Assembly (NCBI RefSeq): GCF_053078305.1
Contig: NZ_CP166876.1
Origin: a plasmid
DNA: 6,795 nt
Direction: 5' to 3' (one strand)
Positions 1 to 6,327 of this stretch are shown one piece after another. Both the position numbers and the translations under genes were made by a program. The notes beneath the pieces were generated by a model. That model made no database searches and was not told the origin of the DNA. It was given only the letters and a program-made list of their open reading frames with translations. Within the stretch, counting starts at the first letter, position 1; every line of letters starts with the position of its first letter.

Positions 1-915
1 ATGAGCGCCGCGCTTCAATACTTCGAAGAAAATTTACCTCATCGTCCCTATCACACGGATGATCTCGCTTTCGGCCTTCGCATCTCCGGCAAAGGGCGCG
101 CTCTTCTTGCGCGCTACATCCAGCAGAACCAGCCACATGCGCAGTTCTGGCTGGTTTTTGACATTGACCGCGAGGGGGCTGCGATTGACTGGAGCGACCG
201 GAACGCTCCCGCGCCGAACATCACCGTAAAAAATCCTGTGAACGGTCATGCTCACCTGCTCTACGCGCTCAATATCGCCGTGAGAACCGCGCCGGACAGC
301 TCGGTTAAGGCGCTGAAATACGCCGCTGCGATTGAACGTTCGCTGTGTGAGAAACTTTGTGCTGATGTGAACTACAGCGGACTGATTTGCAAAAACCCGT
401 TCCACCTGGAATGGCAGGTGATGGAGTGGCGAGAGGAAGCCTATACCCTCGATGAACTGGCTGATTATCTCGATTTGAGTGCCTCAGCGCGCCGTAGCAT
501 CGATAAACATTACGGGATGGGGCGAAACTGCCACCTGTTCGAAATGACGCGCAAATGGGCTTACAGGGCGATTCGTCAGGGCTGGCCAGCATTCTCACAG
601 TGGCTTGATGCTGTGATTCAGCGTGTCGAAATGTACAACGCATCGCTTCCCGTTCCGCTTTCTCAGGCTGAATGTCGGGCTATTGGCAAGAGTATTGCGA
701 AATACACGCACAGGAACTTCACGCCGGAAACTTTCGCACAGTATGTGGCTGATACGCACACGCCAGAAATTCAGGCTACACGCGGTCGCAAGGGCGGTTC
801 TAAGTCTAAGCGCGGCACAGTAGCTACATCAGCACGCACGCTGAAACCTTGGGAGAAATTAGGGATCAGTCGCGCCTGGTATTACCAACTGAAAAAACGA
901 GGTCTCGTAGAGTAG
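1..915 (+). CDS. rep: ColE2-type plasmid replication initiator Rep (plasmid-specific primase)
   Basis: 304-aa ORF starting at window position 1. The N-terminus (MSAALQYFEENLPHRPY...QQNQPHAQFWLVFDIDREGAA...NITVKNPVNGHAHLLYAL) matches what I remember of ColE2/ColE3 Rep proteins, and its size is typical of them. A ColE2-like origin lies directly 3' of the stop codon, as in that family. Confidence 0.88.
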   Translation: MSAALQYFEENLPHRPYHTDDLAFGLRISGKGRALLARYIQQNQPHAQFWLVFDIDREGAAIDWSDRNAPAPNITVKNPVNGHAHLLYALNIAVRTAPDSSVKALKYAAAIERSLCEKLCADVNYSGLICKNPFHLEWQVMEWREEAYTLDELADYLDLSASARRSIDKHYGMGRNCHLFEMTRKWAYRAIRQGWPAFSQWLDAVIQRVEMYNASLPVPLSQAECRAIGKSIAKYTHRNFTPETFAQYVADTHTPEIQATRGRKGGSKSKRGTVATSARTLKPWEKLGISRAWYYQLKKRGLVE

Positions 916-1584: not shown

Positions 1585-3804
1585 ATGGCGATTTATCATC
1601 TCAGCATGAAAATCATTTCGCGAAAAAACGGCTACAGTGCCGTTGCTTCTGCTGCCTACCGTTCCGGCTCTGTCATACCCGATGACCGTACCGGATTAAC
1701 CCACGATTACACCCGTAAACGCGGCGTTGATGATGCGGTCATTCTCACCCCTGCGAATGCACCGTCCTGGTGTGGTGACCGTTCCGTTCTCTGGAATGCG
1801 GTCGAGAAAGCCGAACAGCGCCGGAACTCCCAGCTGGCAAGGGAGATTGAACTCGCCATTCCCCGTGAGATTTCCCGCGAGGCCGCACGGGAGACCGTTC
1901 TCGCTTTTGTCCGGGAAAACTTTGTCAGTCGGGGCATGATTGCCGATGTGGCGTTCCATCACATGGACCGGACCAATCCCCATGCGCACATCATGCTGAC
2001 CACGAGAGCTGTCGGGGAAACGGGATTCGCAGGAAAGGTCAGGGACTGGAACGACCGGGCACTCGCCGAGACGTGGCGCGCATCATGGGCTGACCATGCG
2101 AATAGAGCGCTTGCGAACGCCGGCTACCAGGAAGAGATAGACCATCGTTCATACGAGCGTCAGGGACTGGAGAAAGCGCCGGGCCTTCACCTCGGAAAGG
2201 CTGCCTGTGCGATGGAAAAACGGGGAATGGAAACAGAACGCGGTGAGCAGAACCGTCTGATTAACAGCCTTAACCTGGAAATACAGGTTTCCCGCACGCA
2301 GCTTGCTCTCAGGACGGTTCAGGAAGCGCAGCGTAAGCGGGAACTCAGCGATGCTGCACGTCGTGCAGCGGAAGCCCTTAACCTGACCATTCCCGCTGCG
2401 AATGCCTCAGCGGATACCCTGCGGGAATTCATTGCCACGCTGCCGCAGGAATGCGGGAACGCGTGGGAGATGACCCCGGAGTTCCTGGCGATGAGCGGGA
2501 AGGTGAACGACATCGAACGTGAGGGGAATGCGCTGCTGAAAGAGCAGGCCATTCTCGAAAAGGAGATGACCGGACTCAAAAAAGCACGCCCTGTCGCGTC
2601 CCTTCTGTCAGAGATTCCCCTGATGACATGGGCTGAACCGGAATACCGCAAAAGACAACTCCGTTTCTGGAAACTCGGGAAACAGATTGAATCTCTTCGC
2701 CGCACCTACAGGGCCGTGAAAGAACGGGACATTCCCGCCCGTCGTCAGGCCTTTGAAACGCAGTGGAATACGTGGATTGCGCCGGGAATGGCAGAGCTGA
2801 AAGAAAAACTGTCAGCACGGGAAGCGGAGCGGCGCAGGGAGGAAGCCGAAGCGGAAGCGCGCCGGAAGGAACAGGAGCATGAGGCGCGGCTGAAACGTCA
2901 TGATAACCACCGTCTGAGCCGTGAAACGGCATTAGTCGGGGTTATTACGGAGCTGGGGCGTGCCAGAGAGCCGGGAACGGGCAGGATAACCCGCTACATG
3001 ATGCTGAGTAACAGGGCCGGAGAATTCACGGTATGGGGTGATGAGCTGGCGCATTACCCCCGGAGTGTTCATGACCCGGTGAATGTTTATCTGTCGCCTG
3101 GCGGGGCTGTGATGGTCACGGATATACACGCAGGGCGGCCTGAATCTCATGAGACAATGGCGCGGCCTGAGCGTGTGAGAATGTATTCCGGTGCGACGGT
3201 CCGGCATGTACTGGAACAGATGCGCCAGGGGTGGCCCTCTTACGGTTTTCCGGCGCTGCCGCATCACTGGCCGGATAATTTTTATTTCAGCAACGACCGC
3301 AGGCCCGTAGCCTCTCCGCTACCGTCAGCGCACCGGGTGGATATCACCGCTGATGCGGCACCGGAACAACTCATGCCTGTTGTATTTTCGAGAGAGGGAA
3401 ACAGCAGGACGCTGAATCTGTTGTTGTGCAAAGGGCCGGAGGAAATGCTTGTCGGGTTTGTTCGCCGGGAAGGAGGGTTTTGCCCCGTTCTTGTGCTTCC
3501 GTCGCCGGATTACAGTCATCTGATGGTCAGCACCATCACGGAGAACGGGGTATGCCTGGCAGGTTACGGAGAAGCTATAAACCATGATGAGGATACTCCG
3601 TACCCACCGGAACCGCACCTGATGCAGTTCCGGCTCAAAGGCCATCATGACAGGCTTTTGGCTGCTGTCCACAAACCGGAAGAGATGCCGGATTATCTCT
3701 TCCGTCAACTCGGTTTTAATCAGACCTGGCATGAGTGGAAGCGGGACGAACAGCACAGGCAACAACAACGCCGCCCCGGGCACTTCCGGGGCATGAGTAT
3801 GTGA
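1585..3804 (+). CDS. mobA: Mobilisation relaxase, MobA/MobL family (MOBQ-like), with long C-terminal extension
   Basis: The N-terminus MAIYHLSMKIISRKNGYSAVASAAYRSG is the conserved MobA/MobL start, with a tyrosine at residue 25 (codon 1657-1659), the same position as the catalytic Tyr25 of RSF1010 MobA. A histidine-triad motif HHMDRTNPHAHIM sits around 1957-1995. The start is set at the in-frame ATG at 1585; the six-frame ORF begins at 1498 but that upstream stretch overlaps the oriT and lacks the family N-terminus. About 440 residues follow the relaxase domain. Confidence 0.88.
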   Translation: MAIYHLSMKIISRKNGYSAVASAAYRSGSVIPDDRTGLTHDYTRKRGVDDAVILTPANAPSWCGDRSVLWNAVEKAEQRRNSQLAREIELAIPREISREAARETVLAFVRENFVSRGMIADVAFHHMDRTNPHAHIMLTTRAVGETGFAGKVRDWNDRALAETWRASWADHANRALANAGYQEEIDHRSYERQGLEKAPGLHLGKAACAMEKRGMETERGEQNRLINSLNLEIQVSRTQLALRTVQEAQRKRELSDAARRAAEALNLTIPAANASADTLREFIATLPQECGNAWEMTPEFLAMSGKVNDIEREGNALLKEQAILEKEMTGLKKARPVASLLSEIPLMTWAEPEYRKRQLRFWKLGKQIESLRRTYRAVKERDIPARRQAFETQWNTWIAPGMAELKEKLSAREAERRREEAEAEARRKEQEHEARLKRHDNHRLSRETALVGVITELGRAREPGTGRITRYMMLSNRAGEFTVWGDELAHYPRSVHDPVNVYLSPGGAVMVTDIHAGRPESHETMARPERVRMYSGATVRHVLEQMRQGWPSYGFPALPHHWPDNFYFSNDRRPVASPLPSAHRVDITADAAPEQLMPVVFSREGNSRTLNLLLCKGPEEMLVGFVRREGGFCPVLVLPSPDYSHLMVSTITENGVCLAGYGEAINHDEDTPYPPEPHLMQFRLKGHHDRLLAAVHKPEEMPDYLFRQLGFNQTWHEWKRDEQHRQQQRRPGHFRGMSM

Positions 3805-3842: not shown

Positions 3843-3866
3843 GGGCCACAAAATTTTTTGTGGCCC
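3843..3866. terminator. GC-rich hairpin downstream of mobA (possible terminator)
   Basis: Palindrome 'gggccac aaaatttttt gtggccc' has a 7-bp GC-rich stem with an A/T loop, located 39 bp after the mobA stop. There is no clean T-run after the stem, so terminator function is uncertain. Confidence 0.35.
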
Positions 3867-3923: not shown

Positions 3924-3952
3924 TTGACAGAAAAAACGATGACGGGTACTTT
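3924..3952 (+). promoter_or_regulatory. Putative colicin promoter (-35 TTGACA; -10 region uncertain)
   Basis: A perfect -35 hexamer 'ttgaca' at 3924-3929 lies upstream of the LexA boxes and about 110 bp upstream of the colicin ATG. The best -10 candidate about 17 bp downstream ('tacttt', 3947-3952) is weak, so exact promoter elements are uncertain. Confidence 0.5.
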
Positions 3953-3957
3953 TTGAT

Positions 3958-3988
3958 CTGTACATAAAACCAGTGGTTTTATGTACAG
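3958..3988 (+). promoter_or_regulatory. Overlapping dual LexA (SOS) boxes of a colicin operon
   Basis: The sequence 'ctgtacataaaaccagtggttttatgtacag' contains a first box CTGTACATAAAACCAG (3958-3973) and a second box overlapping its last base and ending in ACAG at 3988. This is the characteristic tandem overlapping SOS operator found upstream of colicin genes (CTGT-N8-ACAG type). Confidence 0.9.
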
Positions 3989-4036
3989 TATTAATCATGT
4001 AATTAATTGTTTTAACGCTTAAAAGAGGGAATTTTT

Positions 4037-5707
4037 ATGAGCGGTGGCGATGGACGCGGCCATAACACGGGCGCGCATAGCACAAGTGGTAACATTAATG
4101 GTGGCCCGACCGGGCTTGGTGTAGGTGGTGGTGCTTCTGATGGCTCCGGATGGAGTTCGGAAAATAACCCGTGGGGTGGTGGTTCCGGTAGCGGCATTCA
4201 CTGGGGTGGTGGTTCCGGTCATGGTAATGGCGGGGGGAATGGTAATTCCGGTGGTGGTTCGGGAACAGGCGGTAATCTGTCAGCAGTAGCTGCGCCAGTG
4301 GCATTTGGTTTTCCGGCACTTTCCACTCCAGGAGCTGGCGGTCTGGCGGTCAGTATTTCAGCGGGAGCATTATCGGCAGCTATTGCTGATATTATGGCTG
4401 CCCTGAAAGGACCGTTTAAATTTGGTCTTTGGGGGGTGGCTTTATATGGTGTATTGCCATCACAAATAGCGAAAGATGACCCCAATATGATGTCAAAGAT
4501 TGTGACGTCATTACCCGCAGATGATATTACTGAATCACCTGTCAGTTCATTACCTCTCGATAAGGCAACAGTAAACGTAAATGTTCGTGTTGTTGATGAT
4601 GTAAAAGACGAACGACAGAATATTTCGGTTGTTTCAGGTGTTCCGATGAGTGTTCCGGTGGTTGATGCAAAACCTACCGAACGTCCAGGTGTTTTTACGG
4701 CATCAATTCCAGGTGCACCTGTTCTGAATATTTCAGTTAATAACAGTACGCCAGCAGTACAGACATTAAGCCCAGGTGTTACAAATAATACTGATAAGGA
4801 TGTTCGCCCGGCAGGATTTACTCAGGGGGGTAATACCAGGGATGCAGTTATTCGATTCCCGAAGGACAGCGGTCATAATGCCGTATATGTTTCAGTGAGT
4901 GATGTTCTTAGCCCTGACCAGGTAAAACAACGTCAGGATGAAGAAAATCGCCGTCAGCAGGAATGGGATGCTACGCATCCGGTTGAAGCGGCTGAGCGAA
5001 ATTATGAACGCGCGCGTGCAGAGCTGAATCAGGCAAATGAAGATGTTGCCAGAAATCAGGAGCGACAGGCTAAAGCTGTTCAGGTTTATAATTCGCGTAA
5101 AAGCGAACTTGATGCAGCGAATAAAACTCTTGCTGATGCAATAGCTGAAATAAAACAATTTGAACGATTTGCACATGACCCAATGGCTGGCGGTCACAGA
5201 ATGTGGCAAATGGCCGGGCTTAAAGCTCAGCGGGCGCAGACGGATGTAAATAATAAGCAGGCTGCATTTGATGCTGCTGCAAAAGAGAAGGCAGATGCTG
5301 ATGCTGCATTAAGTACTGCGATGGAAAGCAGGAAGAAGAAAGAGGATAATAAAAGAGATGCTGAAGGCAAACTAAATGATGAGTTAGCAAAAAATAAAGG
5401 AAAGATACCAGGTCTAAAAATAGATCAGAAAATTAGGGGACAAATGCCAGAAAGAGGATGGACAGAGGATGATATCAAAAATACCGTATCTAACGGTGCA
5501 ACTGGTACATCTTTTGATAAGCGTAGTCCGAAGAAAACACCTCCAGACTATTTAGGTCGAAATGATCCAGCAACAGTGTATGGTTCTCCTGGTAAATATG
5601 TTGTTGTCAATGATCGTACTGGTGAGGTTACTCAGATTAGTGATAAGACAGATCCGGGTTGGGTGGACGATTCGAGAATTCAATGGGGAAATAAAAATGA
5701 CCAATAA
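4037..5707 (+). CDS. cea: E-group colicin (BtuB/Tol-dependent); C-terminal cytotoxic domain most consistent with E5-type anticodon tRNase
   Basis: 556-aa ORF with an AGAGGG ribosome-binding site upstream. The glycine-rich N-terminal translocation domain carries the TolB box DGSGW at residues 35-39 (nt 4139-4153), as in colicins E2/E3/E9. The central region is the long coiled-coil receptor-binding domain typical of E colicins. The C-terminal ~105 residues (KIPGLKIDQKIRGQMPERGW...WGNKNDQ) have no HNH motif and no histidine, which argues against the E2/E7/E8/E9 DNases; I do not recognise it as the E3 rRNase either, and it fits my recollection of the histidine-free E5 tRNase domain. It is preceded by the SOS operator and followed by immunity and lysis genes. 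Confidence 0.93.
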   Translation: MSGGDGRGHNTGAHSTSGNINGGPTGLGVGGGASDGSGWSSENNPWGGGSGSGIHWGGGSGHGNGGGNGNSGGGSGTGGNLSAVAAPVAFGFPALSTPGAGGLAVSISAGALSAAIADIMAALKGPFKFGLWGVALYGVLPSQIAKDDPNMMSKIVTSLPADDITESPVSSLPLDKATVNVNVRVVDDVKDERQNISVVSGVPMSVPVVDAKPTERPGVFTASIPGAPVLNISVNNSTPAVQTLSPGVTNNTDKDVRPAGFTQGGNTRDAVIRFPKDSGHNAVYVSVSDVLSPDQVKQRQDEENRRQQEWDATHPVEAAERNYERARAELNQANEDVARNQERQAKAVQVYNSRKSELDAANKTLADAIAEIKQFERFAHDPMAGGHRMWQMAGLKAQRAQTDVNNKQAAFDAAAKEKADADAALSTAMESRKKKEDNKRDAEGKLNDELAKNKGKIPGLKIDQKIRGQMPERGWTEDDIKNTVSNGATGTSFDKRSPKKTPPDYLGRNDPATVYGSPGKYVVVNDRTGEVTQISDKTDPGWVDDSRIQWGNKNDQ

Positions 5708-6026
5708 ATTATTTGAACATACGGTGTTATATGATAGTGGTGATGCCTTTTTTGAATTAAAAGGAAATGCTTCTATGAAGTTATCACCAAAAGCTGCAAT
5801 AGAAGTTTGTAATGAAGCAGCGAAAAAAGGCTTATGGATTTTGGGCATTGATGGTGGGCATTGGCTGAATCCTGGATTCAGGATAGATAGTTCAGCATCA
5901 TGGACATATGATATGCCGGAGGAATACAAATCAAAAATCCCTGAAAATAATAGATTGGCTATTGAAAATATTAAAGATGATATTGAGAATGGATACACTG
6001 CTTTCATTATCACGTTAAAGATGTAA
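5697..6026 (+). CDS. Colicin immunity protein (cognate inhibitor of the C-terminal nuclease domain)
   Basis: 109-aa ORF (MTNKLFEHTVLYDSGDAFFELKGN...) whose ATG at 5697 overlaps the colicin stop codon (5705-5707), the typical translationally coupled position of nuclease-colicin immunity genes. The six-frame ORF begins at 5562, but that extension lies wholly inside the colicin reading frame and is rejected. The gene is AT-rich like the cytotoxic domain. Confidence 0.85.
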   Translation: MTNKLFEHTVLYDSGDAFFELKGNASMKLSPKAAIEVCNEAAKKGLWILGIDGGHWLNPGFRIDSSASWTYDMPEEYKSKIPENNRLAIENIKDDIENGYTAFIITLKM

Positions 6027-6123: not shown

Positions 6124-6267
6124 ATGAAAAAAATAACATGGATTATTTTATTGCTTCTTGCAGCCATTATTCTTGCTGCATGTCAGGCAAACTATATCCG
6201 CGATGTTCAGGGCGGGACTGTATCCCCGTCATCCTCAGCTGAACTGACCGGATTAGCAACGCAGTAA
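6124..6267 (+). CDS. Colicin lysis / release lipoprotein (bacteriocin release protein)
   Basis: Translation by hand gives the 47-aa protein [47 protein letters not shown], with a lipoprotein signal peptide and lipobox LAAC. It is nearly identical to the E-group colicin lysis proteins as I recall them. It is absent from the ORF track because it is short. A ribosome-binding site 'aaggaa' lies upstream. Confidence 0.9.
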
Positions 6268-6294
6268 CCCGAAATCCTCTTTGACAAGAACAAA

Positions 6295-6327
6295 GCGTGT
6301 CAGGCTGATTCTGACGCGCTTTTTTTT
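6295..6327 (+). terminator. Rho-independent terminator of the colicin operon
   Basis: A 9-bp stem 'gcgtgtcag' (6295-6303) pairs with 'ctgacgcgc' (6311-6319), with one G-U pair and a 7-nt loop, and is followed by a run of 8 T (6320-6327). It lies 28 bp after the lysis gene stop. Confidence 0.8.

What the first reader, a model, noticed from the sequence alone, without database searches (positions are those of the whole stretch)
4139..4153. TolB box DGSGW at residues 35-39 in the glycine-rich translocation domain
The pentapeptide position and sequence are exactly those of the E-group colicin TolB-binding epitope. This implies Tol-dependent import and, with the coiled-coil R domain, BtuB as receptor. 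Resistance and cross-immunity predictions follow from this.
Basis: partly seen in the sequence, partly recalled or inferred. Interest (0 to 1): 0.25.

Follow-up and report, generated by a model that had tools for sequence, protein, structure and literature searches.

The report
Colicin E5 TolB-binding box, textbook case

Summary
Nt 4139-4153 encode DGSGW, residues 35-39 of a 556-aa ORF (4037..5707, + strand).

The window is a complete 6795-bp ColE2-type plasmid, 99.2% identical to E. coli O111 pO111-110512_4. It carries rep, mob, an SOS-regulated colicin gene, ImmE5 and a lysis gene.

How the colicin compares with solved structures:
- Residues 1-103 are 100% identical to crystallised colicin E3.
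- 80 of the first 83 residues match colicin E9.
- The whole 16-residue TolB-binding epitope (32-47) matches E3 and E9 16/16.
- The flanking OmpF-binding sites match 17/17 and 9/10.
- The coiled-coil R domain matches the E3 R135 fragment crystallised with BtuB, apart from 7 substitutions.
- The last 115 residues are 100% colicin E5 tRNase.

The epitope is under purifying selection. Lineages with a T domain only about 67% identical keep it 16/16, with synonymous changes only.

Two corrections apply:
- Cross-immunity follows from the tRNase/ImmE5 pair, not from the TolB box.
- The receptor follows from the R domain. Relatives combine the same TolB box and E5 tRNase with a colicin Ia-like receptor domain.

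Verdict: already known, low interest.

The parts
4139..4153 (+). DGSGW, residues 35-39: core 'TolB box' pentapeptide
   Evidence: Direct reading and translation. Identical to the ColE9 TolB box as defined in PMC2821528.
4130..4177 (+). Full TolB-binding epitope, residues 32-47 (GASDGSGWSSENNPWG), including Trp46
   Evidence: 16/16 identical to E3- and E9-type proteins. Epitope limits come from PMC7391070 and PMC8561637. Divergent lineages show synonymous changes only.
4040..4090 (+). OmpF-binding site 1 (OBS1), residues 2-18
   Evidence: 17/17 identical to ColE9 and E3. Limits from PMC8561637.
4196..4225 (+). OmpF-binding site 2 (OBS2), residues 54-63 (IHWGGGSGHG)
   Evidence: 9/10 identical to ColE9; His62 replaces Arg62, as in crystallised E3. 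Limits from PMC8561637.
4037..4285 (+). Intrinsically unstructured translocation domain (IUTD), residues 1-83, Gly/Ser/Asn-rich
   Evidence: Composition. 80/83 identical to an E9-type protein and 82/83 to an E3-type protein. The 83-residue IUTD is defined in PMC8561637.
4286..4972 (+). Folded T domain, residues 84-312
   Evidence: Pfam PF03515 (Cloacin), residues 30-311, E=2.2e-102. 229/229 identical to an E3-type protein.
4973..5377 (+). [quoted passage not shown]
   Evidence: PDB 1UJW_B (colicin E3 R135) E=6.5e-74 and 2YSU_B (colicin E2 R domain) E=2.5e-70. Pfam E2R135 scores 30.2 bits against a cutoff of 21.4. The hairpin tip 360-400 is 40/41 identical to E3/E9, with the single change N376E.
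5360..5704 (+). Colicin E5 anticodon tRNase domain, residues 442-556
   Evidence: Identical over all 115 aligned residues to PDB 2DFX_E and 3AO9_A. Pfam Colicin_E5 E=4.3e-33.
4037..5707 (+). Colicin E5 structural gene (556 aa plus stop)
5775..6026 (+). ImmE5 immunity gene, 83-aa form. RefSeq annotates a 109-aa form from 5697 and names it 'colicin transporter'.
   Evidence: Pfam ImmE5 E=5.4e-26. An 83-aa cluster member is named IMM5_ECOLX. Annotation; sequence.
6124..6267 (+). Colicin release (lysis) lipoprotein gene, 47 aa
   Evidence: Pfam Lysis_col E=1.3e-22. Annotated in the near-identical plasmid.
3958..3988 (+). Two overlapping LexA (SOS) boxes upstream of col: CTGTACATAAAACCAG and GTGGTTTTATGTACAG
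   Evidence: The first box was found with 1 mismatch to CTGT-N8-ACAG. The second is my own reading. SOS control of col operons is stated in PMC1669751.
3924..3952 (+). Probable col promoter: -35 TTGACA (3924-3929), 17-nt spacer, weak -10 TACTTT (3947-3952)
   Evidence: My own reading. The consensus scan did not call it, because the -10 matches only 3 of 6. This is an inference.
6292..6322 (+). Intrinsic terminator after the lysis gene (13-bp stem followed by a T run)

Best explanation
The pentapeptide is the core of the TolB-binding epitope (residues 32-47) of a colicin E5 encoded on a small ColE2-type colicin plasmid.

Expected mechanism, by homology with ColE9 and ColE3:
1. [quoted passage not shown]
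2. The disordered, glycine-rich N-terminal 83 residues thread through a neighbouring OmpF trimer. OBS2 lodges in one pore and OBS1 goes back up a second pore.
3. This presents the epitope to the periplasm. There it occupies the Pal-binding site on the TolB beta-propeller and leaves TolB's N-terminus free to engage TolA.
4. The proton-motive force, acting through TolQ-TolR-TolA, then drives import.
5. The C-terminal tRNase reaches the cytoplasm (FtsH-dependent for nuclease colicins). It cleaves the QUN anticodons of tRNA-Tyr, -His, -Asn and -Asp.
6. The producer is protected by ImmE5. Expression is SOS-induced, and release depends on the lysis lipoprotein.

Shown here: sequence identity of every import epitope and domain to the characterised proteins, purifying selection on the epitope, and an intact operon.

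Inferred: the binding events and the genetic dependence on btuB, ompF and tolB for this particular protein.
For: - Motif and frame.
- Residues 1-103 are identical to crystallised colicin E3. Residues 1-459 align to ColE9 of the cryo-EM translocon structure 7NSU at E=8e-269.
- TBE 16/16, OBS1 17/17, OBS2 9/10, IUTD 80-82/83.
- The R domain matches the BtuB co-crystal fragments 1UJW_B and 2YSU_B.
- The C-terminal 115 residues are identical to the E5 tRNase of 2DFX/3AO9, and ImmE5 lies downstream.
- Purifying selection: four E. coli/Shigella lineages with a folded T domain only 151-159/229 identical keep the epitope 16/16, with 3-5 synonymous and 0 non-synonymous codon changes. A Yersinia homologue has 8 synonymous and 1 non-synonymous change in the epitope, against 17 and 35 in the rest of the IUTD (Fisher p=0.002).
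- Cloacin DF13-type relatives with a homologous T domain have a different sequence at this spot, NSGPGWGTTHTPNG. The epitope therefore marks the E-group specifically.
- Literature: DGSGW 35-39 is the ColE9 TolB box, extended to include Trp46 (PMC2821528). Colicins E2-E9 target TolB through residues 32-47 (PMC7391070). The translocon mechanism is described in PMC8561637. E3 and E5 are homologous in their translocation and receptor domains (PMC1669751). The E5 tRNase targets come from the abstracts. FtsH dependence of nuclease colicins is from PMC6455109.
- Intact operon with LexA boxes, lysis gene and terminator. The exact protein is on at least 1000 contigs.
Against: - Nothing functional was measured here.
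- TolB binding, OmpF threading and BtuB binding were demonstrated for ColE9, E3 and E2, not, in anything I could read, for E5 itself.
- Two small differences from the structurally characterised proteins lie in interaction regions. His62 replaces Arg62 of ColE9 in OBS2, although crystallised E3 also has His. Glu376 replaces Asn376 at the R-domain hairpin tip, where every solved E2, E3 and E9 structure has Asn. Glu is, however, the commonest natural form: 66 of 70 representatives.
Confidence: 0.94

Rival explanations
1. DGSGW is a chance product of a Gly/Ser-rich low-complexity stretch and has no specific function.
For: The region is 42% glycine. Short G/S motifs are therefore relatively easy to obtain by chance.
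Against: Only 0.22% of composition-preserving shuffles contain the motif anywhere. The whole 16-residue epitope is identical to E3 and E9. It is kept through synonymous-only change in lineages whose flanks diverge.
Confidence: 0.01
2. The TolB box is functional, but this colicin uses a receptor other than BtuB or has altered receptor or porin affinity. The causes would be the Glu376 substitution at the R-domain tip and His62 in OBS2.
For: All solved BtuB-bound or full-length E2, E3 and E9 structures have Asn at this position, and the window has Glu. Relatives show that receptor domains are swapped independently of the TolB box.
Against: The tip region 360-400 is otherwise 40/41 identical to E3/E9. 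Glu376 is the majority natural allele, and it also occurs in a protein named colicin E2 by its source (P0001). His62 is the state in crystallised E3. By classical definition, the E group, E5 included, is the set of colicins to which btuB mutants are resistant; this is established knowledge and was not re-read here.
Confidence: 0.04
3. The gene is a silent or decaying copy, so the motif has no current biological role in this plasmid.
For: None was found.
Against: The 556-codon ORF is uninterrupted. LexA boxes, a ribosome-binding site, immunity and lysis genes and a terminator are all intact. The exact protein sequence recurs on at least 1000 contigs, and the operon is at least 99.6% identical in 12 complete E. 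coli genomes.
Confidence: 0.01

Closest known systems
Colicin E9 TolB-binding epitope (TolB box DGSGW 35-39; epitope 32-47; PDB 2IVZ, 7NSU/7NST)
   Same: The epitope is 16/16 identical and at the same residue numbers. OBS1 is 17/17 and the IUTD 80/83. The T and R domains are homologous throughout.
   Different: The IUTD differs at L27I, G30S and H62R. Part of the folded T domain (about residues 105-145) differs. The cytotoxic domain is an E5 tRNase, not an HNH DNase, and the immunity protein is ImmE5, not Im9.
Colicin E3 (PDB 1JCH, 2B5U; R135-BtuB complex 1UJW)
   Same: The import chassis is essentially the same. Residues 1-103 are identical, the folded T domain is 229/229 and the R domain 127/135 identical to an E3-type protein.
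   Different: The C-terminal domain is an anticodon tRNase instead of a 16S rRNase. Substitutions are N376E at the hairpin tip and several near the R-C junction.
Colicin E5 of ColE5-099 (C-terminal RNase domain and ImmE5; PDB 2DFX, 2DJH, 3AO9, 2FHZ)
   Same: The C-terminal 115 residues are identical. ImmE5 lies downstream, and its 83-aa form is in the cluster named IMM5_ECOLX.
   Different: No difference was detected in the parts that have been solved. I could not retrieve the full-length ColE5-099 reference N-terminus for comparison.
Colicin A TolB box (DGTGW, residues 11-15; 12-residue hairpin in the TolB complex)
   Same: The core motif is the same, D-G-[ST]-G-W, in a disordered N-terminal T domain. 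It recruits TolB (PMC2821528).
   Different: The position, the flanking sequence and the bound conformation all differ. ColA also binds TolA directly and is a pore-former (PMC2821528; PMC7391070).
Cloacin DF13 / klebicin-type relatives
   Same: The folded T domain (PF03515) is homologous and the N-terminus is glycine-rich, starting MSGGDG.
   Different: NSGPGWGTTHTPNG replaces DGSGWSSENNPW (7/16 identity in the epitope), and the R domain differs. From memory only, and not verified here: cloacin DF13 uses IutA and is reported not to need TolB.

Membership tests
E-group colicin TolB-binding epitope (TBE / TolB box) | Pentapeptide DGSGW at residues 35-39 | tested here: met
   Nt 4139-4153 translate to DGSGW at residues 35-39. 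The definition is in PMC2821528.
E-group colicin TolB-binding epitope (TBE / TolB box) | Extended 16-residue epitope 32-47, including the anchoring Trp46 | tested here: met
   GASDGSGWSSENNPWG is 16/16 identical to E3- and E9-type proteins.
E-group colicin TolB-binding epitope (TBE / TolB box) | Lies in a disordered, glycine-rich N-terminal region of about 83 residues, flanked by OmpF-binding sites OBS1 (2-18) and OBS2 (54-63) | tested here: met
   35 of 83 residues are Gly. OBS1 is 17/17 and OBS2 9/10. The architecture is described in PMC8561637. Disorder itself was not predicted here.
E-group colicin TolB-binding epitope (TBE / TolB box) | Selective constraint on the epitope relative to its flanks | tested here: met
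   In four divergent E. coli/Shigella loci the epitope has 0 non-synonymous and 3-5 synonymous changes. In Yersinia it has 1 and 8, against 35 and 17 in the rest of the IUTD (p=0.002). The E. coli comparison alone is not significant (p=0.13).
E-group colicin TolB-binding epitope (TBE / TolB box) | Physical binding to the TolB beta-propeller; killing requires tolB, tolA, tolQ and tolR | not testable with these tools
   This needs ITC or pull-down assays and tol mutant spot tests.
BtuB-dependent (E-group) colicins | Coiled-coil hairpin R domain homologous to the E3/E2 R135 fragment that binds BtuB | tested here: met
   1UJW_B E=6.5e-74 and 2YSU_B E=2.5e-70. The tip 360-400 is 40/41 identical. 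Pfam E2R135 scores above its cutoff.
BtuB-dependent (E-group) colicins | btuB mutants are resistant, and vitamin B12 competes for binding | not testable with these tools
   This is a genetic and biochemical test. N376E at the tip is the only difference from the crystallised complexes in the contact region.
Colicin E5 (anticodon tRNase colicin) | C-terminal E5-type ribonuclease domain | tested here: met
   Residues 442-556 are identical to 2DFX_E and 3AO9_A. Pfam PF12106 E=4.3e-33.
Colicin E5 (anticodon tRNase colicin) | Cognate ImmE5 gene immediately downstream, followed by a lysis gene, under an SOS promoter | tested here: met
   Pfam ImmE5 and Lysis_col. A cluster member is named IMM5_ECOLX. 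LexA box.
ColE2-type colicin plasmid | Small mobilizable plasmid with a Rep primase-type initiator and a MobA/MobQ relaxase | tested here: met
   Pfam Replicase plus PriCT_1, and MobA_MobL. The window is 99.2% identical over its full length to the 6795-bp circular plasmid NZ_AP019765.1.

The most novel reading that the evidence does not exclude
The most novel reading not excluded is that this common natural E5 chassis differs functionally from the laboratory ColE9/E3 models. Glu376 at the BtuB-contacting hairpin tip and His62 in OBS2 might change receptor or porin affinity, or host range. The identical TolB epitope would then be only part of the import specificity.
Probability: 0.04. Interest if true: 0.2.

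Novelty: already known. Interest (0 to 1): 0.06.

Why it matters
It matters little beyond correct annotation. The motif lets one predict that btuB, ompF and tol mutants will be resistant or tolerant to this colicin, as they are to all E colicins.

Two things are useful in practice. First, the reasoning needs correcting: immunity is predicted by the tRNase/ImmE5 module and the receptor by the R domain, not by the TolB box. Second, RefSeq labels the colicin only as a 'tRNase domain-containing protein' and ImmE5 as a 'colicin transporter'. Automated annotation therefore hides a textbook colicin E5 operon that is common in E. coli O111 and Shigella sonnei plasmids.

Tried and rejected
- **Chance origin of the motif.** Rejected on the shuffle frequency of 0.22% and on full homology.
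- **Antisense and out-of-frame ORFs over the motif** (4012..4197 -, 4019..4222 -, 4095..4319 -, 4125..4289 +). These are by-products of the GGN-rich coding strand. The + frame from 4037 is the one with overwhelming homology.
- **Rfam scan of the whole window.** No RNA family reached its gathering score.
- **Consensus promoter scan.** It did not call the col promoter, so the promoter assignment rests on my own reading and is marked as inference.
- **Selection test within E. coli lineages alone.** There are too few changes to reach significance (p=0.13). The Yersinia comparison carries the statistic.
- **Papers that could not be read.** I tried Cascales et al. 2007 (Colicin Biology), Thomas & Valvano 1993 (tol genes and cloacin DF13) and Loftus et al. 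2006 (TolB-ColE9 structure). None is held. Statements about cloacin DF13's TolB independence and the classical btuB definition of the E group therefore rest on my own knowledge.
- **Glu376 as a sign of an altered receptor.** Judged unlikely, because it is the majority natural allele.

Full report
**1. Observation.** Window 4139-4153 reads GAT GGC TCC GGA TGG. It lies in frame with the ATG at 4037 of a 556-codon ORF, 4037..5707 on the + strand. Translation places DGSGW at residues 35-39. The first 83 residues contain 35 Gly, 13 Ser and 9 Asn. Coordinates, residue numbers and the 'glycine-rich' description are therefore all correct. In 200,000 composition-preserving shuffles of residues 2-83 the pentapeptide appeared anywhere in 0.22%. 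Chance is beside the point, however, because the region is homologous to characterised colicins.

**2. What the window is.** The window is an entire small circular plasmid. After rotation by 1060 bases it aligns end to end with the 6795-bp plasmid pO111-110512_4 of E. coli O111:H- (NZ_AP019765.1), with 54 mismatches. Its genes, by Pfam, are:
- a ColE2-type Rep initiator (1..915; Replicase plus PriCT_1);
- a MobA/MobQ relaxase (PGAP start equivalent to 1585; ends 3804);
- the colicin (4037..5707);
- ImmE5;
- a 47-aa lysis lipoprotein (6124..6267).

Upstream of the colicin gene lie a TTGACA -35 hexamer (3924-3929) and two overlapping LexA boxes (3958-3988). A strong intrinsic terminator follows the lysis gene (6292-6322). 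This is the canonical SOS-controlled col-imm-lys operon (PMC1669751). The exact 556-aa protein is present on at least 1000 contigs of the public collection, in E. coli and Shigella sonnei. In the E. coli complete-genome collection, 18 genomes hold at least 80% of the operon, and the 12 best are at least 99.6% identical.

**3. Identity of the protein, domain by domain.** Against solved structures:
- Residues 1-452 align to colicin E3 (1JCH, 2B5U; E about 1e-290), and residues 1-103 are identical.
- Residues 1-459 align to colicin E9 (7NSU, 5EW5).
- Residues 313-447 align to the E3 R135 fragment solved in complex with BtuB (1UJW_B, E=6.5e-74) and to the E2 R domain (2YSU_B).
- Residues 442-556 are identical over all 115 positions to the colicin E5 C-terminal ribonuclease domain (2DFX_E, 3AO9_A).

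Pfam agrees: Cloacin/T domain 30-311, E2R135 314-447, Colicin_E5 460-547. The protein is therefore colicin E5, built on the shared E-colicin import chassis. This matches the published statement that E3 and E5 are homologous in their translocation and receptor domains but not in their catalytic domains (PMC1669751).

**4. The import epitopes.** The literature gives the following definitions:
- DGSGW 35-39 is the ColE9 TolB box, later extended to contiguous residues including Trp46 (PMC2821528).
- Residues 32-47 are the TolB epitope of colicins E2-E9, crystallised with TolB in 2IVZ (PMC7391070).
- The epitope is flanked by OBS1 (2-18) and OBS2 (54-63) within an 83-residue intrinsically unstructured domain (PMC8561637).

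In the window protein the epitope is 16/16 identical to E3- and E9-type proteins. OBS1 is 17/17. OBS2 is 9/10, with His62 in place of ColE9 Arg62, as in crystallised E3. The whole IUTD is 82/83 and 80/83 identical.

**5. Independent evidence of function: conservation.** A search with the T domain returned 146 relatives.
- *E. coli, Shigella and Salmonella lineages.* These have a folded T domain only 151-159/229 identical to the window protein. One of them, P0035, is listed in 1741 index blocks. They still carry the epitope 16/16, mostly at position 35.
- *Codon level, E. coli/Shigella.* Four such loci (L003-L006) differ from the window in the 16 epitope codons by 3-5 synonymous and 0 non-synonymous changes, while the flanks accumulate replacements.
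- *Codon level, Yersinia.* A Yersinia homologue (L007) shows 8 synonymous and 1 non-synonymous change (G36H, giving DHSGW) in the epitope, against 17 and 35 in the rest of the IUTD (Fisher p=0.002).
- *Cloacin DF13-type relatives.* Those from Klebsiella and Serratia have NSGPGWGTTHTPNG at the equivalent place.

The epitope is thus a selectively maintained, lineage-specific feature and not a by-product of low complexity.

**6. Mechanism.** I infer the ColE9 pathway (PMC8561637; PMC7391070):
1. The R-domain tip binds BtuB.
2. The IUTD threads through OmpF subunit 2, and OBS1 re-enters subunit 1.
3. The epitope captures TolB at the Pal site while leaving the TolB N-terminus free for TolA.
4. TolQ-TolR-TolA couple the proton-motive force to import.
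5. Nuclease colicins then need FtsH to cross the inner membrane (PMC6455109).
6. The E5 domain cleaves the QUN anticodons of tRNA-Tyr, -His, -Asn and -Asp (abstracts).

The sequence identities and the selection pattern are shown here. The binding and genetic dependencies for this protein are inferred.

**7.
- *Cross-immunity does not follow from the TolB box.* Immunity specificity resides in the cytotoxic domain and its immunity protein. This colicin shares its TolB box with E3 and E9 but carries the E5 tRNase and ImmE5. Only cross-resistance (btuB) and cross-tolerance (tol, ompF) follow from the T and R domains.
- *The receptor follows from the R domain, not from the TolB box.* Among the relatives, P0007, P0006, P0067, P0071 and P0107 combine the identical epitope with an E5 tRNase. 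Their central domain is unrelated to the BtuB-binding tip (6/41). It matches the colicin Ia receptor-binding domain instead (1CII_A 256-371, E=1.9e-10; 2HDI_B, E=2.7e-9).

For the window protein itself the R domain is the BtuB type. Its only tip difference is N376E. That residue is absent from all solved structures but is the commonest natural allele, in 66 of 70 representatives.

**8. Novelty and verdict.** Everything here is textbook: a colicin E5 operon on a ColE2-type plasmid, with the canonical E-group TolB box. Novelty: already known. Interest is low.

The residual uncertainty is only that no experiment was, or could be, run on this protein. Three key references were also not readable. 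Two background statements therefore rest on my own knowledge: the btuB-based definition of the E group, and cloacin DF13 being TolB-independent.

Noticed in passing
Locus L004 301-1956 (protein P0007; also P0006, P0067, P0071, P0107): These E. coli colicins have the identical TolB epitope, an E-type T domain and an E5-type tRNase. Their central receptor domain matches the colicin Ia (Cir-binding) R domain (PDB 1CII_A E=1.9e-10, 2HDI_B E=2.7e-9) rather than the BtuB-binding coiled-coil tip (6/41 identity). The combination is a Tol-type translocation module with an Ia-like receptor module. I did not check whether it has been described.
   Followed up: partly
window 5697-6026 (and 5775-6026): RefSeq/PGAP annotates the ImmE5 immunity gene as 'colicin transporter'. 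It uses a 109-aa N-extended form that overlaps the colicin stop by 11 nt. The 83-aa form starting at 5775, preceded by AAAGGA, is the one named IMM5_ECOLX. The colicin itself is named only 'colicin-like bacteriocin tRNase domain-containing protein'.
   Followed up: partly
window 5162-5164 (residue 376): Glu376 (FERF) lies at the R-domain hairpin tip, where all solved colicin E2, E3 and E9 structures have Asn (FNRF). Glu is the majority natural allele, in 66 of 70 cluster representatives carrying the KQFxRF motif.
   Followed up: partly
Loci L003, L005, L006 (proteins P0035, P0011, P0048): A very abundant second E-colicin lineage in E. coli and Shigella sonnei; P0035 is listed in 1741 index blocks. 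Its folded T domain is only about 67% identical to the window's and its IUTD has a 5-6 residue deletion. The TolB epitope is invariant and the R domain is near-identical. The lineage carries rRNase or DNase killing domains.
   Followed up: partly
Locus L007 301-1398 (P0115, Yersinia enterocolitica); P0072 (Salmonella): A variant TolB box DHSGWSSENNPW (G36H) sits in otherwise strongly diverged N-termini. Cloacin DF13-type proteins have NSGPGWGTTHTPNG at the same place.
   Followed up: no
window 1983-3321 (mob gene), especially 2298-2337, 2440-2485, 3015-3156 and 3292-3321: 49 of the 54 differences from pO111-110512_4 fall in tight patches inside the relaxase gene, while the rest of the plasmid is nearly identical. 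This looks like short recombination (mosaic) tracts, not point mutation.
   Followed up: no
window 3843-3866: A perfect 7-bp GC-rich hairpin (GGGCCAC ... GTGGCCC) with an A4T6 loop lies between the end of the mob gene and the colicin promoter. The terminator scan did not call it because the loop exceeds 8 nt. It may be a mob terminator or an insulator.
   Followed up: no
protein cluster of ImmE5 (P0145): ImmE5 fragments are deposited under Bifidobacterium dentium. This is most likely contamination of those assemblies by an E. coli colicin plasmid.
   Followed up: no
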